From positions 2,087 to 66,086 of the forward strand of contig JAOUMJ010000002.1 in the NCBI GenBank assembly GCA_029881495.1: 64,000 bases of DNA. The letters run 5' to 3'. Position 1 is the stretch's first letter. Every line of letters starts with the position of its first letter. Below the pieces are notes generated by a model, which made no database searches, was not told the DNA's origin, and worked only from the letters and a program-made list of their open reading frames with translations. Positions 5,006 through 32,113 of the stretch are shown here, in pieces. A program made the translations under genes and the position numbers. The stretch is from Nitrospinota bacterium. GTDB taxonomy: Bacteria; Nitrospinota_A; UBA7883; JACRGQ01.

Positions 5006-5392
5006 CTACAAAAAATTCGGGATGTTTTTCAATTCAGCAAAGAGCTCTGACGGTTTGAACGGTTTTTGGAGATAGGCGTTCGCGCCCAGGGATTTTGCCA
5101 AATTCCTGTCCTCCTCCATGGCATCGGTGGTGATCATGATCACCGGTATGTTCCTGAATTTCTCGTCGCCTTTTATGGTTTTCAGGAATTCCAGTCCATC
5201 CATGTTCGGCATATTAATGTCGCAGATTATAAGATCTATCTCGTTTTTAGCGAGCGCGTCGAGCGCTTCCAATCCGTCGGCGGCCTGAATATGGTTATCG
5301 AGGGAGGCCATCTTTTTCAAGGCGAATGTTACCATCGTTCTGAATGTCGAGGAATCATCCACTACCAATACAGTTTTAGAATTATTCGACAT
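5006..5392 (-). CDS. cheY: single-domain response regulator CheY
   Basis: VLVVDDS..ICDINMPNMDG..ITTD..GANAYLQKPF receiver signature. 128 aa. Confidence 0.85.
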   Translation of the reverse strand: MSNNSKTVLVVDDSSTFRTMVTFALKKMASLDNHIQAADGLEALDALAKNEIDLIICDINMPNMDGLEFLKTIKGDEKFRNIPVIMITTDAMEEDRNLAKSLGANAYLQKPFKPSELFAELKNIPNFL

Positions 5393-5417
5393 GGTTTTTT
5401 ATTCTATTATTGTTTGG

Positions 5418-6296
5418 CTATTTAGGCAAAGCATTCTTGCCTCCAGCGGAAATAAGAGGTTTTTGGTACATTATGACCTTGGACATCGGTTTCATGTCGA
5501 AAAGTGTTGTTATTTTGAACAAGGACTCAGTTTGTCCTATTAACAGGAATCCCCCAGGAGCCAGCGAATCATAGAAGTTCTTTACGATCTTGCTCTTCCC
5601 GTCAGAATCGAAGTAGATAAGGGCATTTCTGCAAAGTATAAGATCAATGTCCTTCACGAACGCCATCTGGCTACTGTTGAAGAAATTGATTCTTGAGAAT
5701 TTCACCATGTCGATAATTTTTTTATCCAGTTTGAAATACCTGCCGCTGTCATGGGAGAAATATTTTGTTCTTATGTTTGCATCAGTGGCCCTGAAATCAA
5801 ATTCGTTGTAGATGCCCTGTTTTGCTACGTTGAGGGCTTCGGTATTTATGTCGGATCCCAATATTTCTATTGTCCATTCTTTGGGACTAAAAAGTCCACT
5901 TTCCACGATGAGAATAGCCATCGTATACGGTTCGGCTCCGGTTGAACAGGCGGCGGACCATATGCGGATCTTTTTAATTCCGCTTTTTTGTTTGCTTTCC
6001 TTCAGCATCGGGAGGAAAGAATTTTTCAGCATTTCCATCTGCGGAGGTTCCCTGAAAAAGTATGTCTCGTTTACGGTGACAAGATTCAAAAGAAGTATGA
6101 TCTCCTCTTCCTTTTTGGAATCAAACCGGAGGAAATGGTAGTAGTCCTTGACGCTGCCGAGGCTGTTGGCTTCCACCCTCATGAGGATTCTTTTTTTGAA
6201 AAGATCTTCCTGGGCGCCTTTGAAGACAAGCCCTGAGTATTCCCGCAGGTAATCCTCAAACAGTTTCAGCTCCTCCGCGGAGATTGTTAGCGCCAT
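5418..6296 (-). CDS. cheR: chemotaxis protein methyltransferase CheR
   Basis: CheR N-terminal helical domain plus SAM-binding core (TVNETYFFRE, IWSAACSTGAEPYT, LAPGGFLLIG). Confidence 0.88.
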   Translation of the reverse strand: MALTISAEELKLFEDYLREYSGLVFKGAQEDLFKKRILMRVEANSLGSVKDYYHFLRFDSKKEEEIILLLNLVTVNETYFFREPPQMEMLKNSFLPMLKESKQKSGIKKIRIWSAACSTGAEPYTMAILIVESGLFSPKEWTIEILGSDINTEALNVAKQGIYNEFDFRATDANIRTKYFSHDSGRYFKLDKKIIDMVKFSRINFFNSSQMAFVKDIDLILCRNALIYFDSDGKSKIVKNFYDSLAPGGFLLIGQTESLFKITTLFDMKPMSKVIMYQKPLISAGGKNALPK

Positions 6297-6344
6297 ATTA
6301 GACTGTTATCCTTGTTTTTCGCGAAAGGCGTTTTCTTTCGGCTT

Positions 6345-6683
6345 CTATTTGCTAAAACTTTTTACGGCGTCGTCCCTGCCTGTAAAAACACCAAACTTCG
6401 ATAAAAGTCCGGTAACCTCGAAAGGGGTTTTAATATCGGGATTCAGGGAAGCAAGGGCGACATTGCCGCCATTGGCCTGAGAATTCCTGAGAATGCTTGC
6501 AAACGCACCGAGTCCGTAGCTCGAGATGAATTCAGTCAGTTTCATGTCTATAACTAATTTGTATCTTCCGTCTTTCATGAGTTTTTCCGCAAACTCCATG
6601 AATACTGGCGTCGAGTGCACATCCAATTTCCCGTCGATTTGAACTACTGTTATATCCCCGATATTTTCAGATTCAATGATCAC
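6345..6683 (-). CDS. STAS-domain anti-sigma-factor antagonist-like protein
   Basis: SpoIIAA-like length (112 aa) and pattern: VVQIDGKLDVHS..FISSYGLGAF. Confidence 0.75.
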   Translation of the reverse strand: MIIESENIGDITVVQIDGKLDVHSTPVFMEFAEKLMKDGRYKLVIDMKLTEFISSYGLGAFASILRNSQANGGNVALASLNPDIKTPFEVTGLLSKFGVFTGRDDAVKSFSK

Positions 6684-6704
6684 ATTACCTCCAATGGCAA
6701 AATA

Positions 6705-9119
6705 TTAGCTTGTAAGTTTCTTGATCCAGGGGTCATTTTCACCTTCAACCCCTTTTTGTAACAGGTCAATTATCTTGCTGTCGGCAGACGACGACAGGGC
6801 AAGCGCGGATATTCTTCTGATCGAAGGAGACGCGGCTTGGAGTCCCTTGAAAAGGAATTCTACGGATTCACTCTTTTCTATAAAAGCTGGGAGTGAATAG
6901 ACGAATTTCCGTATAGTGTGATTTGTAATCGCAGACGGGTCGAATACGATCCCATGTTTGTCCGTTATAGTATTTAACGCGGAGTACGCCTCAAACCTGT
7001 GTTTTTCAACACCGAGATACTCAAGGAGCATTTCCGCATGTTCGGCCCCTCCGATAACAGAGAGCGCCTTCATGGCTTTGTGCAAAAGAAGAATGTTCGA
7101 ATCGTCCCTTGGCAGGAGCTTTAAAAAGGTTTCCACCCGGGGTAGGGCGCTGTCGATTGTGTAGTCCGTTATATATCCGAGAACGGCAGATTGTATTATC
7201 CAGCTCTCCCTTTCGAGGCAGGGGAGGATGGATTCCGATTCCTTTTCACCGCCTAGCAGAGCAAGAGTTGAGACAGTTTCTGCAACTAATTCCGGTATTT
7301 CATCGTCAAGGATGTTCCTTAGCGCCGGTATTGCCTTTTCGTCGCCGCATTTACCAAGAGCTGTGATGGCAACTATTTTAGTTTCGGAATTCGTATCTGA
7401 GGTAAGCAGTTTCAAAAGAGGCTCGGAAGCTTCCGTCAGGCGGCGCTTCCCTATAGCCCTTACCACATAATTAAGGGTATCTGGTTTTACCTCGCCAAGC
7501 AGATTTACCAGGAGTTCATTTGCTGTCGGATGGACGATACTGCTTAAGGTCCATATCGACTGTACTCTAACCGAGAAATCATCATCGTTGAACAGCTTTG
7601 AAATGGATGTGAAAAGATCCTTTTCGGAAATGTTGTCTCTGTTCTTGTTTCCCTGGTATCCAAAGGAGTGTACGGCCGCGGCGCGGGCCTTTGGGGAGGG
7701 ATCAGAAAATCCATTGAGGAGAATAGGCGCCACGTCGCCCATTGATGAAAAGCCGAGAGCCCGGTACGCGCCCCATCGGATATTTTCATTGCCGGATCTG
7801 GTGAGAGCCTTGATTTTTTCCCTGTTGAATTTTTGCAGGAGAGACATCCCGCCTACGGCCGCTTTCCTTATGGACTCTTCGGGGGATGAAAGCATCGGTA
7901 CGATTTTGTCAAACTGCAGAGATGCCTGCATCATCCCGAGTGATTTGATCGTATCTGCAACGATATCGCTGTCGGGAGAGTCAAGGAAAGGAAGGAGTCT
8001 TTCAGAGTCGTCTTCCTTTCCGAGGAGGCCGATAATCCTTATAAGATTGCTCAATACCTGCTTTTTATCGGATTTCAATCCGGCAAAGATATTTGCCAAT
8101 ATGCCCGGGCCCTGCACTGTTATCAGTTCGCGAACTTCATTTTCAAAAGCGGGGTCCTCAAGTAGCGGGAGAAGATGCTCAACGGAGAATTTGCCTCTGA
8201 AATCCCAAAGTATGTTCAGGGCGGATTTGACTTCTTCCGTTTTTCCTCCAGAGAGCATCTCGATTATCGCGTCTATAATATGCGATGAATCGAGTTTTTT
8301 CAGTTCAAGGTTGGCTTTGTAATAATAAAATCCATGCCGGGTTATCTTCGCGAATTCCCTTTCCCTGTCCCTTATCATCGCCAGGGAGGTTATTCCAGCC
8401 TTTATAAGGTTTTTGTCATCGGTGCCTGAGATGACGTTTATTATCGGGAGGAGACCGCCAAGCTCTCCTATCATCCCGATGGCGGAAATTGCCGGGTAGC
8501 CGAGGATTGGATCATCAAGCATTTCAATCAGCGAAGGGAGCGCGCGCTCATCCCCGATCAATCCAAGCGCGGTTATATAGGGGAATTTGGACCAAGTTTC
8601 TTCCTTTACAACCGCTTCAAGTAGTGTGTCGACAGCCTCCGGGGACCCTATTCTTCCGAGCGCCTCGACGATGGCGTATCGGACGTTTTCATCCGGATCG
8701 TAAATCGAATTAAGAAGATAATTCAGAGCTTCCTTCTTCCCGAGGTTGCCGAGAGTATTAGCGCAGTAGATGCGGACATCGACAGTCGGATCGCTATTTA
8801 GTATTTCTCCAAGCGGCTGGGCAACATCTTCCCCCATCTCCTGAAGCACCGTCATGGCTGTATTTCTTACGGCTGCTCCCGGATCCCTCAAACAGTCAAT
8901 AAGAGGGGCGATACTCTCTTTTTCCTTTATTTTCACCAATGAAGTGGCGGCTGTATTTCGCACCTGCCAATGATCGTCCCCCAGAAGTGCAAGAAGGGGT
9001 TTTACGGCTGTACTCTCGCCGAATTCACCGAGCATCTCCGCGGCCTGTCTGCGAACGGAGAATTCCTCCGATTCCAACTGGCTGATAAAGAATTCAACTT
9101 CATTCATGGTATTAATCAT
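6705..9119 (-). CDS. large HEAT/PBS-lyase-repeat protein (804 aa)
   Basis: More than 15 repeats of the VR..AA.ALG.IG..A...L..LL.D type (PBS lyase HEAT-like) along the whole protein. Confidence 0.8.
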   Translation of the reverse strand: MINTMNEVEFFISQLESEEFSVRRQAAEMLGEFGESTAVKPLLALLGDDHWQVRNTAATSLVKIKEKESIAPLIDCLRDPGAAVRNTAMTVLQEMGEDVAQPLGEILNSDPTVDVRIYCANTLGNLGKKEALNYLLNSIYDPDENVRYAIVEALGRIGSPEAVDTLLEAVVKEETWSKFPYITALGLIGDERALPSLIEMLDDPILGYPAISAIGMIGELGGLLPIINVISGTDDKNLIKAGITSLAMIRDREREFAKITRHGFYYYKANLELKKLDSSHIIDAIIEMLSGGKTEEVKSALNILWDFRGKFSVEHLLPLLEDPAFENEVRELITVQGPGILANIFAGLKSDKKQVLSNLIRIIGLLGKEDDSERLLPFLDSPDSDIVADTIKSLGMMQASLQFDKIVPMLSSPEESIRKAAVGGMSLLQKFNREKIKALTRSGNENIRWGAYRALGFSSMGDVAPILLNGFSDPSPKARAAAVHSFGYQGNKNRDNISEKDLFTSISKLFNDDDFSVRVQSIWTLSSIVHPTANELLVNLLGEVKPDTLNYVVRAIGKRRLTEASEPLLKLLTSDTNSETKIVAITALGKCGDEKAIPALRNILDDEIPELVAETVSTLALLGGEKESESILPCLERESWIIQSAVLGYITDYTIDSALPRVETFLKLLPRDDSNILLLHKAMKALSVIGGAEHAEMLLEYLGVEKHRFEAYSALNTITDKHGIVFDPSAITNHTIRKFVYSLPAFIEKSESVEFLFKGLQAASPSIRRISALALSSSADSKIIDLLQKGVEGENDPWIKKLTS

Positions 9120-9534: not shown

Positions 9535-10428
9535 CTACCCCCTTGGATGGGCTTTCGAATGTATTTTTGAAAGCCTTTCCCGGTTGATATGTGTATAGAT
9601 CTCCGTGGTCGTAAGCGTTGAATGTCCCAGCATGGACTGCACCGACCTAAGGTCGGCGCCTCTTTCCAGCAGATGAGTTGCAAAGGAATGGCGCAGTATG
9701 TGAGGCGATACGCCTCTCCTGATCTCTGCGGTAAGCGCATATTTTTTTAACATAAGCCAGAACGTCTGGCGCGTCATCGGTTTCCCAAGCCTCGAAAGGA
9801 AGAGGGCTTTAACGGGGCGTTTCCCCTTTTCGTATAGGGGCCTGCTTTCAAGCAGATACTTTTCCAGTTTTTCAATGCTTCTCTCGCCAATAGGGATAAG
9901 CCTCTCTTTAGAACCTTTGCCGGAAACCATTATATAGCCTGCCGACAGGTTCAGGTCGGAAGTATTTATCCCGACCAGTTCCGAAACCCGGATGCCTGTG
10001 GAGTAGATCAGCTCGAGCATGGCGGAATCCCTTATTCCTTCGGCTGTTGTTTCGTCGGGCTGCTCAAGCAACCTGTCGATCTCAGACAAGTTCAGAAATT
10101 TTGGGAGTCTTTTCGTGTTTACCGGGTGTTTCATGTTCCGGGTCGGGTCGTTCTCAAACCGGTTCCGGGCAACGCCATACCTGAAAAACATCCTGAGAGA
10201 GGAGAGTTTTCTTGAAATGGAGCGGGATGTGATGTTCTGTTTTCGCAGGAGGGTCATCCACGCTGTCACATCGTGCTGATCGATATTGCCGGAAACATCC
10301 TTTCCGGAGGTTTTCAGCGACTCGATAAAAGATTCCATATCCCGCCTGTACGCATCGACGGTATTTTCGGAAAGATTTCTTTCAACTGTAAGGTGTGTGA
10401 TCCATTCATCCAGAATGGGGAGCATCAA
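9535..10428 (-). CDS. xerD: tyrosine site-specific recombinase XerD/XerC family
   Basis: N-terminal SAM-like core-binding domain (LSENTVDAYRRDM). C-terminal catalytic R..HxxR..Y motifs (RHSFATHLLERGADLRSVQSMLGHSTLTTTEIYTHI). Confidence 0.88.
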   Translation of the reverse strand: MMLPILDEWITHLTVERNLSENTVDAYRRDMESFIESLKTSGKDVSGNIDQHDVTAWMTLLRKQNITSRSISRKLSSLRMFFRYGVARNRFENDPTRNMKHPVNTKRLPKFLNLSEIDRLLEQPDETTAEGIRDSAMLELIYSTGIRVSELVGINTSDLNLSAGYIMVSGKGSKERLIPIGERSIEKLEKYLLESRPLYEKGKRPVKALFLSRLGKPMTRQTFWLMLKKYALTAEIRRGVSPHILRHSFATHLLERGADLRSVQSMLGHSTLTTTEIYTHINRERLSKIHSKAHPRG

Positions 10429-11066: not shown

Positions 11067-11486
11067 AACCAGCCTTTTCTCTGAATAATTTCCGATATTG
11101 TACATCACTTGAATAGATTGAGCAGTTCCATTTATTAAATACTTTTACCTGAATTCAGTACAAGCGGACAAGCGGACAGGGTGATAAAATTTGGTGAGAG
11201 GGAAAGTATTTAGACCTGCCGGGGAGATGGAGGAGCAGGATATGTATGGCGGATCGCGATCTTCGGGTTTGTAACCCCGATATATCGCGTGCAGATGGTG
11301 CAAAATGGGCATTATGCCGAGTCATTTGCATCGCTTGTAGGCTCACGGTTGGAACAGATGGAAAAGAGCTGGAAAGATAAGTAAAATCCGGGCGTAAAAA
11401 ATCTGCTTTTTCCACTGGTTGCTTTAGGTTATTATATGTAAGTTAGAAAAAAGAACATTATCTTGAAATTTTAATAGGTGAGATTA

Positions 11487-12224
11487 ATGGGAAAAACTGC
11501 CTTAATAGTTGATGATGAGATGGAAGTGAGGCGTTGGGTCTCCAACCTGCTGACCACACAACTTGGCTTTGCAAAAACCATGGACGCTCCAAGCGGCGAA
11601 GCCGCGGTAGACCTTATAAAATCTGGCGAAAACTTTGACCTGATCTTCAGTTCGTGGGAGATGCCCAGGATGAAAGGGGATGAGCTCCTTGGCGAACTGA
11701 GGAAAATTCCTGAATCCCAGAATACGCCGTTCATCATGATGAGCTATAAAAAGGACAAGGATTCCCTTGTGAAAGCTATTCAGGCGGGAGTCAATAACTA
11801 CCTTGTAAAACCTCTCTCTGCCGGCATTTTCATGCAAAAGGTGAAAAAAACAATAAGCGACATGGAGAAGAAGGAGCTCGATTCCTTTAAAACAAAACGG
11901 AAGAATCCGGTTGATATTATTCTTGGCGATGATTTTTCCCATCCGGCCTCACTGCACAGCGTGACAAAATCAGGGTGTGTCGTTAGAGCGCCGTTGATAA
12001 AAGGGGGAGAAGTGGGGATTTACAGCCAGGTACATCTGGCAATATTCATGGATGGGATCCCTTTTAAGGTCCCTTCTGAGCTGGTAGCGCTGGAGGCGGA
12101 CAGGGTGGATTCATCAACAAGGCATTTTATAATGGTCACATTCAAATTTGGCGAACACGACCTGAAAATAGACGGAAAGATCGACAGGCTGATAAACAGC
12201 TTTTCTGCGGCAAATCAAAAATAA
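11487..12224 (+). CDS. response regulator with C-terminal PilZ-like domain (REC-PilZ)
   Basis: Receiver motifs LIVDDE..DLIFSSWEMPRMKG..MMSYK..NNYLVKP. C-terminal about 100 aa beta-rich domain consistent with PilZ. AGGTGA RBS 6 nt upstream of the ATG at 11487. Confidence 0.7.
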   Translation: MGKTALIVDDEMEVRRWVSNLLTTQLGFAKTMDAPSGEAAVDLIKSGENFDLIFSSWEMPRMKGDELLGELRKIPESQNTPFIMMSYKKDKDSLVKAIQAGVNNYLVKPLSAGIFMQKVKKTISDMEKKELDSFKTKRKNPVDIILGDDFSHPASLHSVTKSGCVVRAPLIKGGEVGIYSQVHLAIFMDGIPFKVPSELVALEADRVDSSTRHFIMVTFKFGEHDLKIDGKIDRLINSFSAANQK

Positions 12225-22184: not shown

Positions 22185-22841
22185 TCAAAGCGAGATAATC
22201 GCGTTTGAATATTCCCTGTAATGATGCAGCACTTTGTCCGCATAGTAATACTTTATCCTTTTTCTCCTCTTCAGGTCTTTGCTTATGGAAGCGGGCCCAC
22301 GGTTGTATGCCTCAAGGGCCAATCGGACGTTCCCGAACTGCTGAAGAAGTTTTGAAAGATAATATGTCCCAAGCGCGATATTTTTCCTGCTGTCGTACAG
22401 GTTGCCTTCGTGATAATAGGCGACATTGGCTTTGTCGGCCACATAGCTGGCGGTAGGGGGGAGAAGCTGCATCAGACCTACGGCCCCCTTGTGCGAAACA
22501 GCAAATCGCTGAAAATTGCTCTCGGTCCTGATTACTGCAAGTATCAAAACAGGATCAATATTGTGCTCCTCGCTCTTGGCGAGAATGAGCCTGGCCAGTT
22601 TTTCAGGATTATGGTAGAGATTGCCGTCGGATTCCTTTAGGAGCGCCTCAACCTTGGCGCAAAATTCCGCCCTTAGCATCCAGTCGTTGTATTCCACCTT
22701 GAGACTTTTCAATTCTGCAATAAGGCCAGGCTTGGCATCTGCACTCTCCTGCTGTTTAAAATCCTCCACTGTGCGCAAATATCCAAACCCGAGAAGAAAT
22801 GGTATCGAAATAATTATGTAAAAAAAGCCTTTTATCCTCAT
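22185..22841 (-). CDS. membrane-anchored lytic transglycosylase (SLT domain)
   Basis: N-terminal TM. SLT motif ILAVIRTESNFQ...AVGLMQLLPPTA...YN.G. Confidence 0.8.
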   Translation of the reverse strand: MRIKGFFYIIISIPFLLGFGYLRTVEDFKQQESADAKPGLIAELKSLKVEYNDWMLRAEFCAKVEALLKESDGNLYHNPEKLARLILAKSEEHNIDPVLILAVIRTESNFQRFAVSHKGAVGLMQLLPPTASYVADKANVAYYHEGNLYDSRKNIALGTYYLSKLLQQFGNVRLALEAYNRGPASISKDLKRRKRIKYYYADKVLHHYREYSNAIISL

Positions 22842-23225: not shown

Positions 23226-26200
23226 ATGATAGTTTCCTGCCCAAACTGCGAAAGCAGGTACGATATCGAGCCTGGCGGAATTCCGCAAGGGGGGACATAC
23301 GCGCATTGCACCAATTGCGAAAACATTTTCTTCCTGAAAAAACGTAAAAAGGGTGAAAAACCTCGCGCCGCCGCCGTCGGAGCCGGCTCCGCATTGTCGG
23401 AAAGGGATACCGGCGAGATGAGGATTGCTGAAGATAACGGATTTAATCCAGATACCGACTCATTCCCGACCGGAGAAGAGGAGACGGCGCAGGAGCCGGA
23501 ATCGCTCTTTGATGAGATGTTGAATGAAGGTTTCGACGAAGGCCAGCCTCCGGGCGAACCTATGGAGGAGACATTCGCAAGTCAACAGAACGGTGTTCAG
23601 ACATTTTCAATCGAGGATGAGAACGGAGGTGTTGAAGAGAGCATCGCCGACGCGGTAGAAGAGGATATTGACGAGTTTTCTGACGGCACATCCGAGGTGT
23701 TGGAGCTTGAAGCGCCAAATCTCCTGATGGATGAATCTCTAGCAGAGATTGAAGAGGCCGATTTCGAGAGGGATTCTGAGGACCATATTCTTAATTTCGA
23801 AGATGAGGAAAGCGATGAGCCCCAGACGGTAGAAAATGAGATCAGCGACATTCTTCAGTCGGCAGGTCTGTTCGGCAATGGTGAGGCCGAGCCTATCAAG
23901 GCGGAGAGAGGGTTTTCCAGCATGGAAGAGGCGGGCGGGAGCGAATCCGAAGCGGATATCTTTGATGAAGTTAAATCCGAGATGGATATGTTTGAAGAGG
24001 TGAAATCTGAAATCGAAAAAACCGCGCCCCCCGAGACAATGACTGCCGACCTGGCGGAAGAGAGCGAGGTAGGGAGGATATTTGATGACATAAAGAGCGG
24101 AGCCGTTTCAGACGACAGCGGATCTCCTTCAAGCGAAACCGAATTCCAGGACGAAATAGACAAGCTGTTTGCGATGGCGGATGGGGAGGGAGACGCGTCA
24201 ACGCAGGCAGTCGGAAGAGGGGTGATCGATTCAATACTGGATGATTCCAGTTTTGATACAGAGGAGCATGAAGGGGACGCAATCAACGGCAATGGCGGGT
24301 ACAACAATCCGTTTGAAGAGTCGCTCCTTGGAACAGATTCCGATCCGGTGCATGACGAGGTTGATGATATCTTTTCAAGCGGGGGATTGTTCGATGATGA
24401 ATCTACAGGAGCGAATGCAAAGGAGCGGGGGCTCAAGGAGGGGACAGCGTCAGTACCAATGTCCGTGCAGGATGAGATAGATGAGCTTTTTGAACGTAAC
24501 CAGGAAAAGGGACAGACCTACATCATGCCTGAAAGCGCGGTTGAGGATGTGCTTGCACAGGCGGATCAAAGTTCCAAATCCGGCTTTGACGATGTCGACA
24601 TCGACGCTATATTTGCCGAATCGAGCCAGCAGGAGTTTTCACATGGCACAGAGCCGACTGATACGGAGATAGTAAATCTGGAATATACGCCCTTGCCTGG
24701 AGAGTCCTCCCCAATGGATGAATTTGCTGGCGAGGATATTGAATCCCTCTTTTCGGAAGAAAGCGAAGTTCCAGGCAAAAAAGACTCATTGGCGGAAGTT
24801 GATTCAGAAAAAACGGAATATGGCGGAGGTGGCGTGGAGCTCTCCCTGCAGGATGAAATAAACTCTATCTTGTCAGATTCATCTTCGGATTCGGATTCGC
24901 CGCTTGAATCGCCCGAGGCGCTTAGCGAACTGGATACGATAATATTTGAAAGTACAAAGAGAGGTGATTCTGCAAAAGGGCAGTCTGATGTTGATTCACT
25001 TTTCGATGTGTCAAAAGAGAATGACAAGCCCGAGCCAGCGCCAGCAGAGTTACCCACATCTTCCGGTTCCGGCGCTCAATTCAACATAGACGCCATATTT
25101 GCCGAGGCGGCCGGCGGCGGGTCTACAGGCTCGGCAGAGCCGGAGGCTTCAAAAGGTGTTTCATCAGGCGAAGAGATAGACATAGACGCGATATTTGCCG
25201 AGGTTAAAGGTGGCGGGTCTACAGGCTCGGCAGAGCCGGAGGCTTCAAAAGGTGTTTCATCAGGCGAAGAGATAGACATAGACGCAATATTTGCCGAGGT
25301 TAAAGGTGGCGGGTCTACAGTCTCGGCAGAGCCTGAGGCATCAAAAGACGTTTCGTCAGACGAAGAGATAGACATAGACGCAATATTTGCCGAGGTTAAA
25401 GGTGGCGGGTCTACAGTCTCGGCAGAGCCTGAGGCATCAAAAGATGTTTCATCAGATGAAGAGATAGATATAGACGCAATATTTGCCGAGGTTAAAGGTG
25501 GCGGGTCGACAGGCTCGGCAGAGCCTGAGGCATCAAAAGACGTTTCGTCAGATGAAGAGATAGACATAGACGCGATATTTGCCGAGGCTCAAGGCGGCGG
25601 GTCTACAGTCTCGGCAGAGCCGGAGGCTTCAAAAGATGTTTCGTCAGACGAAGAGATAGACATAGACGCGATATTTGCCGAGGCTCAAGGCGGCGGGTCG
25701 ACAGGCTCGGCAGAGCCGGAGGCTTCAAAAGATGTTTCGTCAGACGAAGAGATAGACATAGACGCGATATTTGCCGAGGCGACAGAAGGTATAGACGCAG
25801 AGCTGACAGATTCAGATACTTCCTCCAGCGTAGATCAAGGGGGACAGGCTGATATTGATGCCTTCTTTGCCGAGACAACCGGTGAAAAGAATGTAATTCC
25901 TGTTGTTGCGGATAAGGAAATTGACGTTAACCTGGGGGGACAGAACGATATAGACGCTATGTTTGCCGAGGCGGCAGGGGGGGAGACCGCTACGGTATCT
26001 GAGGCCCCTTCCGGCGACGACCTCGGCGGTCAGGATGATATTGATTCGATGTTTGCCGAAGCGGCAGGCGGGGAAACTGCTACGGTATCTGAGGCCCCTT
26101 CCGGCGACGACCTCGGCGGTCAGGATGATATTGATTCGATGTTTGCCGAGATGACAGACGGGGAACCCCCCGCGGTATCTGAGGCCCCTTCCGGCGACGA

Positions 26201-27995
26201 CCTCGGCGGTCAGGATGATATTGATTCGATGTTTGCCGAGATGACAGACGGGGAAACCCCCGCGGTATCTGAGGCCCCTTCCGGCGACGACCTCGGCGGT
26301 CAGGATGATATTGATTCGATGTTTGCCGAGATGACAGACGGGGAACCCCCCGCGGTATCCGAGACCACATCAAGCGACGACCTTGGTGGAGATAACGATA
26401 TAGACGCTATGTTTGCCGAGGCGGCAGGGGGGGAGACCGCTACGGTATCCGAGACCCCATCAAGCGACGACCTCGGCGGAGATAACAATTTAGATTCATT
26501 ATTTGGCGAATCAGCCGATAACACGGAGAAGGGGGAATTGGCCTCTGGAGGTGACTCTATGAATGAAGGTATTGATGTTTCATCTGACGATGATTTGGAC
26601 GCTCTTTTCGATGGAGATGCCTCGGAACCTACAGATATTTCCACTCCTGCAGAGCCGAGTTCCGCAGAGGGGACATCAAAGCAGGAAGAGGATGGGGCTG
26701 TAATAAGTCAGGATGATCTGGACGCCTTGTTTTCAGAAGAGGGTGGAGGGGACCCTGGTTCCATGGCAACTGCAGATAGTGCCGCTGATGGAGGGGAAAC
26801 TGACAGCTCCGAAGTAGATTTCGGGATATCCGGCGATAAGGATCTTGATTCGCTGTTCGATGCTGAAGCCGAGACGGCAATAATAGGAGACGAGCCTTCC
26901 TTTGACGCCACCCCTGCTGAAAGCGCGGGCGGAAGCAGCGAAGGGGGGATTGACACTTCAATGCTTGAGAGCGTTTCGGAATCGAATGAGCCTGATCATG
27001 AACTTGAGGAGACAAGCGTAGTCGAAACCCAGAGCGTGGATGGTGAGCAGAAAGTAGGAAAACTCGCCAAAGCAGTGCTGGGGGAGGAGGACGAGTTGGA
27101 TTTTGACGAGCCGGCAGAAAAGAAAAAATTTGGCCTCATAGGGAAATTGGCAAAAGTTGCCATGGCTGCCATGCTCCTTGTAGCAGTCGGGCTTGGAACA
27201 GTAACCTACACAAAAAACCAGAATCCGCTGGCGGTAATTGAGCAGGTAAAATCAAAAGGCTTCGGAGGCCTGGGGATAGGTATGTCTGAGATCCTTTCGT
27301 TCAAAGGTTCCGCCGATGTCGAAGAGATGGAGAAAAAGAGAGAAGAGGGGAAGGAAAGCGCTTCTTCAAAAGTGGATGAATCGAAATCAGACGATCAGGT
27401 CGCTGAAGGTACCGGAGAAGCTGCAGGTGATGGAGGCGGCGACACAAGTGGGGATGGCACAAGTGTTGTGGAACAGAAAGAGTTGACCGGCGTGGTACCT
27501 GTACCTGAAAGAGGTGGAACGGTGGTAGCCGACAAGACTCCGTCGCCGGAATCGTCTCTGCCGCCTTTGGAAGAGGACGCGATAGAGACAGCCGCATTGG
27601 AGCCCGCTCCGGTAAAAGCGGCCGTAACAAAAGCGATACCACCCCCGGGCGAGCGCGGAGAGGAATTTCAGTCGGAAGTCTATGAGAGAAACACGGAGCT
27701 GAAGATAGGGGTAATCGTTCCGGTAGACTTCAACGCCGAAGCCGTGAAGGTTATGACTGCTGATGTTCTGATCACGTTCCAGAACACGTCTGAATACGAT
27801 ATGGCCGACACGAAAAGATATCTGTACGAGATGGCGGTAGAAGAAGAGATCGAGAAATTTTTCCTTGATAAGTTTTATGAAGATACTCTGTATGTTCAGG
27901 ACAAAATCATTGCCCAGCTTAATACTAAATTTAAAAAACGGCCCGAGATGGGGAAAATTGCCGAAATAGATATCGAAAACTTCAAGCTGAAATGA
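23226..27995 (+). CDS. giant (1589 aa) hyper-acidic protein with an N-terminal MJ0042-type zinc ribbon, a roughly 1250-aa repeat-rich acidic linker, one TM helix and a DUF3426-like C-terminal domain
   Basis: N-terminus MIVSCPNCESRYDIEPGGIPQGGTYAHCTNCENIFFLKK (CxxC...CxxC). TM KKKFGLIGKLAKVAMAAMLLVAVGLGTVTY near aa 1300. About 230-aa beta-rich C-terminal domain. Single uninterrupted ORF. Confidence 0.8.
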   Translation: MIVSCPNCESRYDIEPGGIPQGGTYAHCTNCENIFFLKKRKKGEKPRAAAVGAGSALSERDTGEMRIAEDNGFNPDTDSFPTGEEETAQEPESLFDEMLNEGFDEGQPPGEPMEETFASQQNGVQTFSIEDENGGVEESIADAVEEDIDEFSDGTSEVLELEAPNLLMDESLAEIEEADFERDSEDHILNFEDEESDEPQTVENEISDILQSAGLFGNGEAEPIKAERGFSSMEEAGGSESEADIFDEVKSEMDMFEEVKSEIEKTAPPETMTADLAEESEVGRIFDDIKSGAVSDDSGSPSSETEFQDEIDKLFAMADGEGDASTQAVGRGVIDSILDDSSFDTEEHEGDAINGNGGYNNPFEESLLGTDSDPVHDEVDDIFSSGGLFDDESTGANAKERGLKEGTASVPMSVQDEIDELFERNQEKGQTYIMPESAVEDVLAQADQSSKSGFDDVDIDAIFAESSQQEFSHGTEPTDTEIVNLEYTPLPGESSPMDEFAGEDIESLFSEESEVPGKKDSLAEVDSEKTEYGGGGVELSLQDEINSILSDSSSDSDSPLESPEALSELDTIIFESTKRGDSAKGQSDVDSLFDVSKENDKPEPAPAELPTSSGSGAQFNIDAIFAEAAGGGSTGSAEPEASKGVSSGEEIDIDAIFAEVKGGGSTGSAEPEASKGVSSGEEIDIDAIFAEVKGGGSTVSAEPEASKDVSSDEEIDIDAIFAEVKGGGSTVSAEPEASKDVSSDEEIDIDAIFAEVKGGGSTGSAEPEASKDVSSDEEIDIDAIFAEAQGGGSTVSAEPEASKDVSSDEEIDIDAIFAEAQGGGSTGSAEPEASKDVSSDEEIDIDAIFAEATEGIDAELTDSDTSSSVDQGGQADIDAFFAETTGEKNVIPVVADKEIDVNLGGQNDIDAMFAEAAGGETATVSEAPSGDDLGGQDDIDSMFAEAAGGETATVSEAPSGDDLGGQDDIDSMFAEMTDGEPPAVSEAPSGDDLGGQDDIDSMFAEMTDGETPAVSEAPSGDDLGGQDDIDSMFAEMTDGEPPAVSETTSSDDLGGDNDIDAMFAEAAGGETATVSETPSSDDLGGDNNLDSLFGESADNTEKGELASGGDSMNEGIDVSSDDDLDALFDGDASEPTDISTPAEPSSAEGTSKQEEDGAVISQDDLDALFSEEGGGDPGSMATADSAADGGETDSSEVDFGISGDKDLDSLFDAEAETAIIGDEPSFDATPAESAGGSSEGGIDTSMLESVSESNEPDHELEETSVVETQSVDGEQKVGKLAKAVLGEEDELDFDEPAEKKKFGLIGKLAKVAMAAMLLVAVGLGTVTYTKNQNPLAVIEQVKSKGFGGLGIGMSEILSFKGSADVEEMEKKREEGKESASSKVDESKSDDQVAEGTGEAAGDGGGDTSGDGTSVVEQKELTGVVPVPERGGTVVADKTPSPESSLPPLEEDAIETAALEPAPVKAAVTKAIPPPGERGEEFQSEVYERNTELKIGVIVPVDFNAEAVKVMTADVLITFQNTSEYDMADTKRYLYEMAVEEEIEKFFLDKFYEDTLYVQDKIIAQLNTKFKKRPEMGKIAEIDIENFKLK
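25084..25780 (+). repeat. coding tandem array A: 96-bp unit x about 7.25, encoding DIDAIFAEVKGGGSTGSAEPEASKGVSSGEEI
   Basis: Unit boundaries at 25084, 25180, 25276 and so on up to 25757. Copies differ by a few synonymous or conservative substitutions. Confidence 0.9.
25935..26500 (+). repeat. coding tandem array B: 90-bp unit x about 6.3, encoding GGQDDIDSMFAE(A/M)(A/T)(G/D)GE(T/P)(A/P)xVSEAPSGDDL
   Basis: Read directly in the sequence. Distinct from array A but carrying the same DIDxMFAE core. Confidence 0.9.
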
Positions 27996-28097: not shown

Positions 28098-28760
28098 ATG
28101 GCAAAAATATTGATCGTTGATGACGACCCGAATATAGCCCTTCTCCTTGAGATGACGCTTCAGAAAAAAGCCGAGTATTCCATCGAAAAGGTGACAGACG
28201 GGCAGAAGGCGCTTGAGCGTATAAATGAAACGAAGCCGGATCTTATCCTTCTTGACATCATGATGCCGGGAATTGACGGGTATGAAGTATGCCGAAGGCT
28301 GAAGATGTCAAACGATACCAAGTATATCTCGGTCATTATCCTTTCGGCGAAGAGGGATATCCAGGACAAGATCAAGGGTATGGATATCGGGGCGGACGAC
28401 TATATTGTCAAGCCTTTCAATCCCGACGAGCTTCTTACACGGGTTCAGGTGCAGTTGCGGATTCGAAAGCTGGAATCGGAAATAGTGGATAAAAAGCAGC
28501 TTGAAACGGTCCTTGCGATGTCCGTTACCCTTCAGCATGAGATCAACAATCCCCTGGCAGGGATACTGGGGAACGCTGATCTTTTAAAGGAGTGGAAGAA
28601 TCTCAGCGACGAAGAGGTGGACGAATCGATCCAGGCGATCGTGAAACAGTCTGCAAGAATAAGGGACATCGTACATAAGATGTCCACGGCGACAAAGGTG
28701 GTTGAATCCACCTATCTCGGCGATACCAAGATGATAGATATTACAAGGCTTAATCCGTAG
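28098..28760 (+). CDS. response regulator receiver fused to a HisKA dimerisation/phosphoacceptor domain, with no HATPase domain
   Basis: REC motifs ILIVDDD..ILLDIMMPGIDG..ILSAK..DDYIVKPF. H-box SVTLQHEINNPLAGILGNADLL. The protein ends about 60 aa later with no ATP-binding N/G boxes. Confidence 0.75.
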   Translation: MAKILIVDDDPNIALLLEMTLQKKAEYSIEKVTDGQKALERINETKPDLILLDIMMPGIDGYEVCRRLKMSNDTKYISVIILSAKRDIQDKIKGMDIGADDYIVKPFNPDELLTRVQVQLRIRKLESEIVDKKQLETVLAMSVTLQHEINNPLAGILGNADLLKEWKNLSDEEVDESIQAIVKQSARIRDIVHKMSTATKVVESTYLGDTKMIDITRLNP

Positions 28761-31279: not shown

Positions 31280-32113
31280 TTACAGTTTTTGGTAAACGGG
31301 TATCCCGTTAGCGTTGACAAGTTTAAAGTTTTTCGAAACATTGTGCAACGTTTCCGAGTGTCCCGTAAAAAAATAGCTGTTATCCCCCATTATTTTCGAT
31401 ATTCCATCAACGACCTTTCTTTTGGTTTCAATGCCGAAGTAGATAAGGATGTTGGCGCAGAATACGACGTCGAAGTTATCATATCCCTGAGGGTATTTGG
31501 GATTGAGCAGGTTGATCCTGTCGAACCGAACTTTGGGGAGTTTCTCCTTTTTCAGCTTGTACCAATCGGTGTGATTTTCGAAGAAATTCTCCCTGTATTC
31601 CGGCGGCATGTTTCGAAGGGAGTGTTTTGAGTAGTTTCCGGCTTCGGCCATTGCCAGAACTTCCGTATTTATATCGCTTGCGTACAGTTCAAGGGATATC
31701 CCTTTTGGGATTGCGTTTTTACGCGCAAGTATCATCGCGATGGTATATATCTCTTCACCGGAGGAGCTTGCGGCGCTCCATATCTTTACCTTGTTATTGC
31801 CGGATGTTTTTTTTACACGCAATATTTCTGGCAAAAGTATGTTTACAAGGGCGTCTATCTGCGCGACGTTTCTGAAGAACGACGTTTCATTCGTGGTTAC
31901 GGCGTTTATGAAGTGTTCGATCTCGGTTTTACTACTCTTTGGGCCGTCAATAAGGGGAAGGTATTCTGTGAAACTCGAAAGTCTCAGGTCGTAAAGCCTC
32001 TCCTGAAGCCGGGCTTCAAACAGGTATTTTTTAGCGGAATCATAAAGGATGCCGCATTCCCGGTTGATGACTTTTGACATCACCGCAAGCTCTTCGTCCG
32101 TGAGTTTGATCAT
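31280..32113 (-). CDS. cheR: second CheR-type chemotaxis methyltransferase paralogue
   Basis: TTNETSFFRN, KIWSAASSSGEEIYT and MGDNSYFFTGHSE motifs of CheR. Confidence 0.85.
   Translation of the reverse strand: MIKLTDEELAVMSKVINRECGILYDSAKKYLFEARLQERLYDLRLSSFTEYLPLIDGPKSSKTEIEHFINAVTTNETSFFRNVAQIDALVNILLPEILRVKKTSGNNKVKIWSAASSSGEEIYTIAMILARKNAIPKGISLELYASDINTEVLAMAEAGNYSKHSLRNMPPEYRENFFENHTDWYKLKKEKLPKVRFDRINLLNPKYPQGYDNFDVVFCANILIYFGIETKRKVVDGISKIMGDNSYFFTGHSETLHNVSKNFKLVNANGIPVYQKL

What the first reader, a model, noticed from the sequence alone, without database searches (positions are those of the whole stretch)
25084..26500. About 35 copies of an acidic short linear motif, D-[IL]-D-x-[ILM]-F-A-E, arranged partly as two perfect tandem arrays
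What the sequence shows directly: a 96-bp unit repeated about 7 times, a 90-bp unit repeated about 6 times, and roughly 20 degenerate solo copies elsewhere in the protein. Each unit carries the same 8-residue core (EIDIDAIFAE, DDIDSMFAE, DLDALFDG, DVDSLFDV, IDKLFAM and similar) separated by flexible Gly/Ser/Glu spacers. Everything beyond that is speculation. A repeated acidic-hydrophobic-x-x-hydrophobic-Phe peptide embedded in a disordered region looks like a multivalent docking motif. From memory only, it resembles the CheY-binding peptides at the FliM N-terminus and CheZ C-terminus, the FtsZ C-terminal peptide (DIPAFL) and the SSB tail (DDDIPF). A REC-domain gene lies immediately downstream, and cheY/cheR/fliN genes occur elsewhere in the window. 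One candidate role is a scaffold that clusters or sequesters many copies of a receiver-domain or cytoskeletal partner. The near-identical units also imply recent expansion and likely strain-to-strain copy-number variation.
Basis: inference. Interest (0 to 1): 0.8.

Follow-up and report, generated by a model that had tools for sequence, protein, structure and literature searches.

The report
FliL-like membrane protein displaying CheY-docking-type motifs
One 1,589-residue membrane protein carries about 35 copies of a short acidic peptide that closely resembles the docking peptides the flagellar switch proteins and CheZ use to bind CheY, fused to a FliL-like domain, so it is probably an undescribed multivalent docking platform of the flagellar or chemotaxis system, although no binding partner has been shown.

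Summary
ORF 23226-27995 (+) encodes a 1,589-aa protein with two near-identical tandem arrays, 96 bp x7.2 at 94% identity and 90 bp x5.8 at 89%. It has 27 profile-detectable copies of h-[SG]-Q-D-D-I-D-A-h-[FL]-A-E, about 35 with degenerate ones. Outside the arrays there are 11 copies against 0.18 expected. The protein has a ZitP/GltJ-type zinc ribbon, a roughly 1,250-aa acidic disordered region, one TM helix and a periplasmic FliL-fold domain. It belongs to an uncharacterised family centred on Nitrospinota, with 81 representatives and always a divergent lytic-transglycosylase neighbour. The motif is conserved in orthologues, while spacers and array structure are not. It matches the FliM N-terminal peptide and is nearly identical to a CheZ C-terminal tail. 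A sister clade, which includes Nitrospina gracilis, instead carries arrays that pass Pfam's threshold for the FliN N-terminal motif. The best reading is a membrane-anchored multivalent platform or decoy for proteins that bind switch-protein peptides. Phosphorylated CheY is the most likely partner and FlhG is the main alternative. Binding is untested. I rate it a new variant of a known kind.

The parts
23226..27995 (+). Whole gene: a 1,589-aa bitopic membrane protein with zinc ribbon, acidic disordered region with motif arrays, TM helix and FliL-like domain.
   Evidence: ORF list and translation. The same protein sequence is in the representative library as P0004.
23226..23333 (+). N-terminal zinc ribbon (aa 1-36, CxxC...CxxC) of the ZitP/GltJ (MJ0042) type, followed by the basic patch LKKRKKGEKPR.
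   Evidence: Pfam Zn_ribbon_4 1.7e-9. TIGR02098. PDB 2nb9 at 7e-4 alone and 3.4e-11 with the family profile; 7zok (AgmX/GltJ) 1.2e-7. AF2 pLDDT 93-95.
23370..27119 (+). Cytoplasmic acidic disordered region (aa 49-1298): 28% D+E, 12% S, 11% G.
   Evidence: Composition. No Pfam match. Low pLDDT for the part modelled.
24144..25010 (+). Eight solo motif copies upstream of the arrays, for example FQDEIDKLFAM, SVQDEIDELFER, DVDIDAIFAE and GQSDVDSLFDV.
   Evidence: Motif-profile hits. Shuffle test.
25084..25779 (+). Array A: 96-bp (32-aa) unit x7.2, core EEIDIDAIFAE[VA][KQ]GGGS. There are eight motif cores at 25086-25787.
   Evidence: TRF. DNA alignment of units. Profile hits.
25839..25883 (+). Solo copy between the arrays: GGQADIDAFFAETTG.
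   Evidence: Profile hit of 11.9 bits.
25959..26479 (+). Array B: 90-bp (30-aa) unit x5.8, core LGGQDDIDSMFAE. Six motif cores at 25935-26429 are the best-scoring copies (16-17.7 bits).
   Evidence: TRF. Profile hits.
26490..26873 (+). Four trailing solo copies: NNLDSLFGE, DDDLDALFDG, ISQDDLDALFSEE and DKDLDSLFDA.
   Evidence: Profile hits.
27144..27209 (+). Single transmembrane helix (about aa 1307-1328). It is preceded by KKK...K, so the N-terminus is inferred to be cytoplasmic and the C-terminus periplasmic.
   Evidence: Sequence read directly. The positive-inside rule is an inference.
27216..27695 (+). Periplasmic low-complexity linker of about 160 aa.
   Evidence: Translation.
27696..27992 (+). 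C-terminal FliL-like (SPFH-related) domain.
   Evidence: Family profile: 81 representatives. 19 of 33 family domains hit Pfam FliL, best 2.7e-8. AF2 pLDDT 86. The top 10 Foldseek PDB hits are FliL periplasmic domains, followed by stomatin/SPFH.
22185..22841 (-). Divergently transcribed SLT lytic transglycosylase, the only conserved neighbour of the family.
   Evidence: Pfam SLT 6e-28. The best NCBIfam hit is the flagellar-assembly lytic transglycosylase BB0259 model, 1.5e-27, domain level only. It holds the same position in the window and eight of nine related loci (L001-L003, L005-L009; L004's contig ends too close to tell).
28098..28760 (+). Downstream REC + HisKA (no ATPase domain) gene. 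This neighbour is lineage-specific and is a possible but unproven partner.
   Evidence: Pfam. Present downstream only in the window and L003.

Best explanation
The gene encodes a bitopic inner-membrane protein of an uncharacterised family. A FliL-fold domain sits in the periplasm. FliL domains form rings around flagellar stator units, so this end probably oligomerises at or near the flagellar basal body. In the cytoplasm, a ZitP/GltJ-type zinc ribbon heads a roughly 1,250-residue acidic disordered chain. That chain presents about 27-35 copies of a short helix-forming peptide, h-[SG]-Q-D-D-I-D-A-h-[FL]-A-E. This is the same kind of peptide that FliM and FliY (N-terminus, the 'EIDAL' motif) and CheZ (C-terminus) use to dock phosphorylated CheY. 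The protein would therefore act as a membrane-anchored, highly multivalent docking platform or decoy for whatever binds the switch-protein N-terminal peptides. The most likely partner is CheY-P, which the protein would concentrate, buffer or sequester next to the motor.

Shown here: the architecture, the disorder, motif conservation with free spacers, the FliL fold, the zinc-ribbon homology, and the sequence equivalence to the FliM_N, CheZ_C and (in the sister clade) FliN_N peptides.

Inferred: the topology, oligomerisation, association with the motor, and the identity of the ligand. The confidence of 0.45 is for the platform for switch-peptide-binding proteins as a whole. I put CheY-P specifically at about 0.35. 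That this is a multivalent short-motif scaffold on a zinc ribbon-TM-FliL-like protein I put at about 0.9.
For: Architecture.

Motif enrichment and purifying selection on motif codons only.

Conservation in orthologues with the consensus [SGA]QDDIDAL[LF] and independent array expansions. Unit sizes are 96 and 90 bp in the window, 81 bp in syntenic L003 and 93 bp in L004; repeat units of roughly 17-48 aa occur elsewhere in the family.

Disorder: pLDDT 44-59 across the repeats, against 93-95 for the zinc ribbon.

Similarity to CheY-docking peptides. FliM 6-19 is the top hit of the motif profile among 40 E. coli flagellar and chemotaxis proteins, and the CheZ C-terminus is second but scores only 0.7 bits. 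FliM is 7th of 177,635 PDB sequences. A CheZ fragment (Pfam CheZ 6e-4) carries two C-terminal copies, 'QDDIDAMFAE' and 'QDDIDALFN'.

The sister clade of the same orthologous locus, including N. gracilis WP_237097832.1, carries tandem arrays of [DE][DE]DLWA[QE]AFA[DE]Q. These pass Pfam's gathering score for FliN_N (3e-21 to 9e-8, with 3-6 stretches each) and match the E. coli FliN N-terminus 'MDDLWAEALSEQ'. Two different clade-specific motifs thus both map to switch-protein N-terminal peptides.

The conserved SLT neighbour is closest to a flagellar lytic transglycosylase model. The core genome of Nitrospina and Ca. Nitromaritima (the family's main phylum, Nitrospinota) encodes flagella and chemotaxis (PMC5029188). 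That the EIDAL motif binds CheY is stated in PMC6946799.
Against: No binding was tested, and the AlphaFold tool returns no contacts. None of the nine related loci I read has a flagellar or che gene within 10 kb, whereas canonical fliL sits next to fliM. The window's own FliL-like domain does not hit Pfam FliL directly, and its arrays hit no Pfam model.

The motif is a generic acidic amphipathic helix. The same profile also matches the MglB C-terminal helix (ranks 2-4), a PKS docking domain (rank 1) and paxillin LD motifs in the PDB, all at non-significant E-values. E. coli CheZ scores only 0.7 bits.

The CheY-like protein in the window (5006-5392) lacks the basic residues equivalent to K119 and K122 of E. 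coli CheY (my by-eye alignment). Array A's core, 'EEIDIDAIFAE', lacks the S-Q of the FliM motif. [quoted passage not shown]
Confidence: 0.45

Rival explanations
1. The protein is a polar or flagellar-placement hub. The repeats recruit the MinD-like ATPase FlhG, which also binds the FliM/FliY N-terminal peptide, or another ParA/MinD-type protein. The zinc ribbon targets the protein to a pole matrix, so it would work like HubP/FimV or ZitP rather than in chemotaxis signalling.
For: FlhG interacts with FliM/N through the N-terminus of FliM (PMC12826062). The zinc ribbon is homologous to that of ZitP, which binds the polar organiser PopZ, and the family keeps an invariant aromatic (F35) at the position of ZitP W35, whose mutation abolishes PopZ binding. 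In L008 and L009 a FimV_N + SPOR protein is encoded in the adjacent SLT operon. The long acidic repeat region resembles that of HubP (my own knowledge).
Against: No flhG, flhF or popZ was seen near any locus. The topology is the reverse of HubP/FimV, and there is no LysM or FimV_C domain. The near-identity to CheZ tails points to CheY, because CheZ is not known to bind FlhG.
Confidence: 0.2
2. The repeats are ligands of the protein's own zinc ribbon, or of an MglA-like small GTPase. This would give autoinhibition or intermolecular cross-linking into a membrane-associated network or condensate, as in GltJ, where the zinc ribbon binds a linker motif in competition with MglA-GTP.
For: The GltJ zinc ribbon binds an 18-residue linker peptide of GltJ and the MglB C-terminal helix (PMC11135422). 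That MglB helix, 'ISDDDIDNLFSE', is among the best PDB matches of the motif profile and binds MglA (PMC6785124). The window's zinc ribbon is homologous to the GltJ/AgmX zinc ribbon 7zok.
Against: I ran AF2 on a construct joining the zinc ribbon (aa 1-75) to three repeats. No repeat gained confidence (pLDDT 56-59, pTM 0.30), so there was no sign of docking. This is a weak negative, because contacts are not returned and the alignment covered only the zinc ribbon. Outside Myxococcales, ZnR-GYF proteins (the GltJ architecture) show no correlation with MglA/MglB operons (PMC11135422). No Mgl genes were seen in any locus.
Confidence: 0.1
3. There is no specific protein ligand. The region is an acidic spacer, entropic brush or cation-binding chain, and the recurring hydrophobic pattern reflects repeat expansion and composition only.
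For: The composition is extremely acidic and the region is disordered. Tandem duplication alone explains the identical copies within each array.
Against: Eleven solo copies occur outside the arrays against 0.18 expected. The same 9-11 residue consensus is kept across family members that are only 21-63% identical in the C-terminal domain, while their spacers are unrelated. Motif codons show only synonymous changes. The sister clade conserves a different but equally sharp motif that meets a curated Pfam model.
Confidence: 0.07
4. The repeats form a folded repeat domain, or the arrays are an assembly artefact.
For: Regular 30-32-aa periodicity. Repeats are prone to mis-assembly, and in L001 the orthologue is frameshifted between the zinc-ribbon ORF and the rest of the gene.
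Against: pLDDT stays below 60 with almost no secondary structure. Unit lengths range from 17 to 48 aa across the family, which is incompatible with one fold. Copies differ by 6-11% in a pattern consistent with real divergence. Arrays recur in independent assemblies.
Confidence: 0.03

Closest known systems
FliL (flagellar basal-body-associated protein, Pfam PF03748; structures 7sgn, 6ahq, 9hmf)
   Same: Single-pass membrane protein with a C-terminal periplasmic domain of the FliL/SPFH fold. Most family members hit the Pfam model, and NCBI annotates one (N. gracilis MCF8719954.1) as FliL.
   Different: Canonical FliL has a short cytoplasmic tail (E. coli FliL is 154 aa) and is encoded beside fliM. 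This protein has a 1,300-residue cytoplasmic part with a zinc ribbon and motif arrays, has a long periplasmic linker, and is never next to flagellar genes in the loci I read.
CheY-P docking peptides: the FliM/FliY N-terminal 'EIDAL' motif (LSQxEIDALL) and the CheZ C-terminal peptide
   Same: Same residue pattern, [SG]-Q-[DE]-[DE]-I-D-A-L-[LF], set in a flexible region. FliM_N is the top E. coli hit of the motif profile, and some CheZ tails are nearly identical.
   Different: Those peptides occur once (occasionally 2-3 times) at a terminus of a switch protein or phosphatase. Here 27-35 internal copies sit on a membrane protein with no CheC, SpoA or CheZ domain. Binding to CheY is not shown.
FliN N-terminal motif (Pfam FliN_N, PF16973)
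   Same: The sister clade of this family, in the same locus and with the same architecture, carries 3-6 tandem copies that pass the curated threshold and match E. coli FliN 'DDLWAEALSEQ'.
   Different: The window's own repeats do not match FliN_N. They share only the spacing of hydrophobic positions, h-x-x-h-F-A-[DE]. I found no established ligand of FliN_N in the paper library.
ZitP (Caulobacter) and GltJ/AgmX (Myxococcus): bitopic adaptors with an N-terminal MJ0042-type zinc ribbon
   Same: Same overall plan: zinc ribbon, flexible linker, TM, then an extracytoplasmic domain. The zinc ribbon is homologous to theirs (2nb9 3.4e-11; 7zok 1.2e-7). In GltJ the linker holds a short motif bound by a signalling protein.
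   Different: The extracytoplasmic domain is FliL-like rather than DUF3426 (ZitP) or GltJ's periplasmic domain. There is no GYF domain. The linker is far longer and carries dozens of motif copies.
HubP/FimV polar hubs
   Same: Membrane-anchored proteins with a long, very acidic, repetitive cytoplasmic region that recruits flagellar and chemotaxis regulators (my own knowledge; HubP and FlhF in PMC12826062).
   Different: Opposite topology, no LysM/FimV_N or FimV_C domain, and unrelated repeat units.

Membership tests
FliL (PF03748) | Sequence match to the FliL profile. | tested here: inconclusive
   The window's domain has no Pfam hit even at E<=10. However, 19 of 33 homologous domains from the same family profile hit FliL, best 2.7e-8. 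The family profile scores E. coli FliL only at 2 bits.
FliL (PF03748) | FliL/SPFH-like fold of the periplasmic domain. | tested here: met
   AF2 pLDDT 86. The Foldseek PDB top 10 are all FliL (7sgn, 6ahq, 6ahp, 9hmf_O), probability 1.00, TM 0.5-0.73, E 3e-3 to 6e-3.
FliL (PF03748) | One TM helix followed by the domain at the C-terminus. | tested here: met
   TM at about aa 1307-1328 and domain at aa 1491-1589.
FliL (PF03748) | Encoded within a flagellar operon (typically upstream of fliM) and associated with stator units. | tested here: not met
   No flagellar gene lies within about 10 kb in the window or the nine related loci. Stator association cannot be tested with these tools.
CheY-P docking peptide (FliM_N EIDAL / CheZ_C) | Sequence pattern LSQxEIDALL or a related pattern in a flexible segment. 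| tested here: met
   The family consensus is h-S-Q-D-D-I-D-A-L-[LF]. FliM 6-19 is the best E. coli hit at 11.3 bits. The CheZ tail P0089 carries 'QDDIDAMFAE'. Array A's variant 'EEIDIDAIFAE' lacks the S-Q.
CheY-P docking peptide (FliM_N EIDAL / CheZ_C) | Located at the N-terminus of a switch protein or the C-terminus of CheZ. | tested here: not met
   The copies are internal, in a protein with no FliM, FliN, CheC or CheZ domain.
CheY-P docking peptide (FliM_N EIDAL / CheZ_C) | Binds the alpha4-beta5-alpha5 face of phosphorylated CheY. | not testable with these tools
   The structure tool returns no contacts and accepts one chain only. The flagellar CheY of this organism is not in the window.
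FliN_N (PF16973) | Match to the curated Pfam model above the gathering score (24 bits). | tested here: not met
   The window's arrays give no hit. Sister-clade arrays score 32-75 bits with 3-6 stretches each.
ZitP/GltJ-type (MJ0042) zinc ribbon | CxxC-N(19-21)-CxxC ribbon matching Zn_ribbon_4/TIGR02098 and the solved ZitP and GltJ domains. | tested here: met
   Pfam 1.7e-9. TIGR02098 8.6e-4, just under its cutoff. PDB 2nb9 and 7zok. C5, C8, C28, C31 and F35 are invariant in 34 sequences.
ZitP/GltJ-type (MJ0042) zinc ribbon | Binds a partner (PopZ; MglB Ct-helix or a linker motif). | tested here: inconclusive
   AF2 of the zinc ribbon plus three repeats shows no confidence gain in the repeats. 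No PopZ or MglB gene was seen.
HubP/FimV polar hub | Periplasmic LysM/FimV_N domain, TM, acidic cytoplasmic repeats and a FimV C-terminal domain. | tested here: not met
   Only the acidic repeats are shared. There is no LysM, FimV_N or FimV_C hit, and the topology is reversed.

The most novel reading that the evidence does not exclude
This would be a new layer of flagellar motor control. A FliL-type ring protein carries a cytoplasmic 'decoy brush' of multiplied switch-protein N-terminal peptides, FliM_N-like in this lineage and FliN_N in the Nitrospina lineage. The brush would buffer, concentrate or sequester CheY-P (or FlhG) right at the motor. It would also imply that the poorly understood FliN N-terminal motif is a ligand-binding peptide functionally interchangeable with FliM_N.
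Probability: 0.3. Interest if true: 0.85.

Novelty: new variant of a known kind. Interest (0 to 1): 0.68.

Why it matters
If the repeats bind CheY-P, this would be the first example of a motor-associated membrane protein that multiplies the CheY docking site tens of times. That would make it a built-in buffer, sink or concentrator that could change how chemotactic signals reach the switch. The swap between FliM_N-like and FliN_N arrays in two clades of one orthologous gene gives a direct, testable handle on what the FliN N-terminal motif does. The family also offers a natural case of rapid, independent expansion of a short linear motif in bacteria. It points to unexplored flagellar biology in Nitrospinota, important marine nitrite oxidisers in which motility has never been seen although the genes exist.

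Tried and rejected
1. Pfam scan of the window's repeat segments and of five orthologues' repeat regions at E<=10 gave only noise.
2. A search of 5.8 billion proteins with a tripled EIDAL-type motif profile returned only 7 short hits and did not even recover the family itself, so it is not a global ranking. The same search with the W-motif profile returned nothing.
3. AF2 of zinc ribbon + repeats, run to test self-binding, showed no sign of docking. The tool gives no coordinates, so this is only a weak negative.
4. I scanned the SLT/gene intergenic regions of nine loci for sigma-28 and sigma-54 boxes. The regex matched only in L001. By eye I also saw sigma-28-like GCCGATA or CCGATAA boxes in L002 and L005. 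The window and L003 show extended -10 sigma-70-like elements. The result is inconclusive.
5. An exact look-up of the window's protein in public assemblies found it is not on record.
6. The FtsZ C-terminal peptide and SSB tail analogy is rejected: neither appears in the PDB profile search and the motif lacks their conserved Pro.
7. REC-HisKA (28098-28760) as the general partner is rejected, because it is present only in the window and L003.
8. I found no fliN in the window among the 56 ORFs I scanned (all of at least 110 aa).
9. Literature searches for FliL plus zinc ribbon and for the FliN N-terminal region found no description of this architecture.
Full report
**1. Observation**

The finding lies inside one long ORF, 23226-27995 on the + strand, 1,589 aa. 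Tandem Repeats Finder reports two arrays. The first is 25084-25779, period 96 bp, 7.2 copies, 94% matches. The second is 25959-26479, period 90 bp, 5.8 copies, 89% matches. The arrays are near-identical, not perfect.

Each unit encodes a core, EEIDIDAIFAE in array A and GGQDDIDSMFAE in array B, followed by a Gly/Ser/Glu/Pro spacer. A profile built from motif copies of the whole family finds 27 copies between residues 307 and 1216 and none in any other ORF of the window. About eight weaker copies lie further upstream, so 'about 35' is a fair count.

Outside the arrays there are 11 matches to [DE][ILV][DNE]x[ILMF][LF], against 0.18 expected from 5,000 composition-preserving shuffles. None of the shuffles exceeded 3. 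Within the 96-bp units the motif codons vary only synonymously, while the spacers carry amino-acid replacements.

**2. What the protein is**

- **N-terminus.** Residues 1-36 are a zinc ribbon (Pfam Zn_ribbon_4, 1.7e-9). It is homologous to the solved zinc ribbons 2nb9 (3.4e-11 with the family profile), which I take from memory to be Caulobacter ZitP 1-43 because the entry is labelled only 'Uncharacterized protein', and Myxococcus AgmX/GltJ (7zok, 1.2e-7).
- **Disordered region.** The zinc ribbon is followed by a basic patch and then about 1,250 residues that are 28% Asp+Glu. They have no Pfam match.
- **Membrane anchor.** A single TM helix at about aa 1307-1328 is preceded by lysines. This suggests a cytoplasmic N-terminus and a periplasmic C-terminus (sequence read directly; the topology is inferred).
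- **C-terminal domain.** The last 100 residues have no direct Pfam hit. A profile of this domain finds 81 representatives among 1.84 billion proteins, always at the extreme C-terminus. Of 33 such domains, 19 hit Pfam FliL, best 2.7e-8. The AlphaFold model has pLDDT 86. Its ten best PDB matches are all FliL periplasmic domains from H. pylori, Vibrio and the C. jejuni motor, followed by stomatin/SPFH domains.

**3. The family and its context**

Close members are annotated only as 'zinc-ribbon domain-containing protein [Nitrospinota bacterium]'. One N. gracilis entry is named FliL by NCBI. L003 (GCA_024275955.1) is syntenic with the window over more than 20 kb.

The only conserved neighbour is a divergently transcribed SLT lytic transglycosylase. 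It is present in the window and in eight of the nine related loci; L004's contig ends too close to the gene to tell. Its best NCBIfam match is the flagellar-assembly lytic transglycosylase model BB0259 (1.5e-27). The match covers only the catalytic domain and is below the model's cutoff.

No flagellar or che genes lie within 10 kb of the gene in any locus. The REC-HisKA gene downstream occurs only in the window and L003. The core genome of Nitrospina and Ca. Nitromaritima does encode flagella and chemotaxis, although motility has not been observed in culture (PMC5029188).

**4. The motif is a conserved short linear motif**

Orthologues keep the motif, with the consensus h-[SG]-Q-D-D-I-D-A-L-[LF]-[AS], in 2 to 25 copies. 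The spacers are unrelated and the arrays are built from different units:

- 96 and 90 bp in the window
- one 81-bp x7.9 array in the syntenic L003
- 93 bp x5.8 in L004
- repeat units of roughly 17-48 aa elsewhere in the family

This pattern indicates selection on the peptide and repeated, independent expansion.

I also modelled a construct joining the zinc ribbon (aa 1-75) to three 32-aa repeats. AlphaFold gave pLDDT 93-95 for the zinc ribbon but only 44-59 for the repeats, with 4-residue nascent helices at IDAIF. The repeats are therefore not a folded domain.

**5. What the motif resembles**

- **PDB scan.** Scanned against all PDB sequences, the motif profile's best matches are a PKS docking domain, the C-terminal helix of MglB (ISDDDIDNLFSE), FliM residues 6-19 (7th of 177,635) and paxillin LD motifs. 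All have individually non-significant E-values.
- **E. coli proteins.** Against 40 E. coli flagellar and chemotaxis proteins fetched from K-12, FliM 6-19 (SILSQAEIDALLNG) is the clear top hit at 11.3 bits. The CheZ C-terminus is second at only 0.7 bits.
- **CheZ tail.** A search with a tripled motif profile returned a CheZ fragment (Pfam CheZ 6e-4). It ends in '...LLNGPALDGPETAQDDIDAMFAEGGEEVGQDDIDALFN', almost identical to the window's 'GGQNDIDAMFAE'. That search was insensitive and is not a global ranking.
- **Known function.** The EIDAL motif of FliM is the CheY-binding site (PMC6946799). FlhG also acts through the FliM N-terminus (PMC12826062).

**6. The sister clade**

More distant members include the N. 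gracilis protein WP_237097832.1. It sits at the same locus with the same SLT neighbour. These members have the same architecture but a different repeated peptide, [DE][DE]DLWA[QE]AFA[DE]Q, again partly in tandem arrays.

This is the N-terminal motif of FliN: E. coli FliN begins MSDMNNPADDNNGAMDDLWAEALSEQ. The arrays pass Pfam's curated threshold for FliN_N with 3-6 matched stretches each, at 3e-21, 8e-20, 3e-12, 1e-8 and 9e-8.

So two clades of one orthologous gene multiply two different peptides, and both correspond to N-terminal peptides of flagellar switch proteins. Together with the FliL fold, this is the strongest argument that the family belongs to the flagellar and chemotaxis system, and that the repeats mimic switch-protein docking peptides.

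**7. Mechanism proposed**

I propose a membrane-anchored protein that is probably oligomeric and motor-proximal. Its cytoplasmic disordered chain displays dozens of low-affinity docking sites for proteins that normally bind the FliM/FliN N-terminal peptides. The most likely partner is CheY-P, which the protein would concentrate, buffer or sequester. FlhG is the main alternative.

The zinc ribbon is a protein-binding module in its relatives: the ZitP ribbon binds PopZ, and the GltJ ribbon binds a linker motif of GltJ and the MglB C-terminal helix. Here it may localise the protein or regulate the repeats. The AF2 test gave no support for binding to its own repeats.

Steps shown: the architecture, the disorder, motif conservation, and the sequence equivalences. 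Steps inferred: the topology, ring formation, motor association and ligand identity.

**8. Weak points**

- No binding data exist.
- No flagellar genes are adjacent.
- The motif is a generic acidic amphipathic helix that also resembles the MglB and PKS docking helices.
- The window's FliL-like domain is linked to FliL only through family members and through fold.
- The CheY-like gene in the window lacks the basic residues that contact FliM_N in E. coli CheY. This rests on my by-eye alignment.

**9. Novelty**

I found no description of a FliL-like protein with a zinc ribbon or with arrays of switch-protein peptides. I rate it a new variant of known kinds (FliL, CheY-docking peptides, ZitP/GltJ-type adaptors), of clear interest to flagellar biology but unproven.

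Noticed in passing
Related proteins P0051, P0056, P0063, P0075, P0077 and P0084 (loci L007-L009, gene at 10001 onward): The sister clade of the family, including N. gracilis WP_237097832.1, carries tandem arrays of [DE][DE]DLWA[QE]AFA[DE]Q. These pass Pfam's FliN_N threshold and match the E. coli FliN N-terminus. The ligand of this FliN motif appears to be unknown.
   Followed up: yes
L010:1745-3159 (+), several frameshifted ORFs on a low-coverage contig: A different protein has at least 6 copies of 'DGPLGQDDIDALLAEMNG' plus further EIDAL-like copies, then a TM helix and a region that looked TPR-like to me by eye (not scanned). It lies just downstream of a receiver-domain fragment. Multi-EIDAL arrays therefore exist outside the FliL-like family.
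   Followed up: partly
P0089 (partial CheZ, Pseudomonadota MAG); P0090, P0091 and P0094 are similar fragments: Some CheZ proteins end in two tandem copies of QDDIDA[ML]F rather than one docking peptide, so modest multivalency already exists in a known CheY-binding protein.
   Followed up: partly
window 22185-22841 (-), and the equivalent gene in L001-L003 and L005-L009: The SLT lytic transglycosylase is always divergent from the gene. Its best NCBIfam match is the Borrelia flagellar lytic transglycosylase model BB0259, at domain level only.
   Followed up: partly
L008:6126-8315 (-) and L009:6154-8421 (-): A protein of about 730-755 aa with FimV_N, Cds6_C and SPOR hits lies in the SLT operon next to the gene in two Nitrospina-like contigs. 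This hints at a peptidoglycan-anchored polar or septal module.
   Followed up: no
window 5006-9119 (-) and 31280-32113 (-): A cluster encodes a CheY-like protein (NMPNMDG signature), CheR, a STAS protein and an 804-aa HEAT-repeat protein, with no cheA or cheW nearby. A second CheR gene lies 3 kb downstream of the finding.
   Followed up: no
window 11478-12224 (+): A receiver domain is fused to an unassigned C-terminal region of about 120 aa. The same gene is conserved in L003 at 952-1743.
   Followed up: no
L001:5968-6294 and 6346-7788: The orthologue in GCA_041643075.1 is split by a frameshift between the zinc-ribbon ORF and the rest of the gene. This could be a pseudogene or a mis-assembly at the repeats.
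   Followed up: no
L005:9900-9960, and L001/L002 upstream regions: Sigma-28-like boxes (TAAAG-N16-TCCGATAA in L005; TCAAAG-N12-GCCGATAG in L001 and a similar box in L002) lie upstream of the gene in three loci. They are absent from the window and L003, which show extended -10 sigma-70-like elements.
   Followed up: partly
window 23334-23369 and the zinc-ribbon alignment A5: In the EIDAL-type clade the zinc ribbon ends in a conserved 'CENIFFVKKRKK' basic patch. The FliN_N-type clade has a different C-terminal strand. This could be co-variation with the repeat type or simply phylogeny.
   Followed up: no
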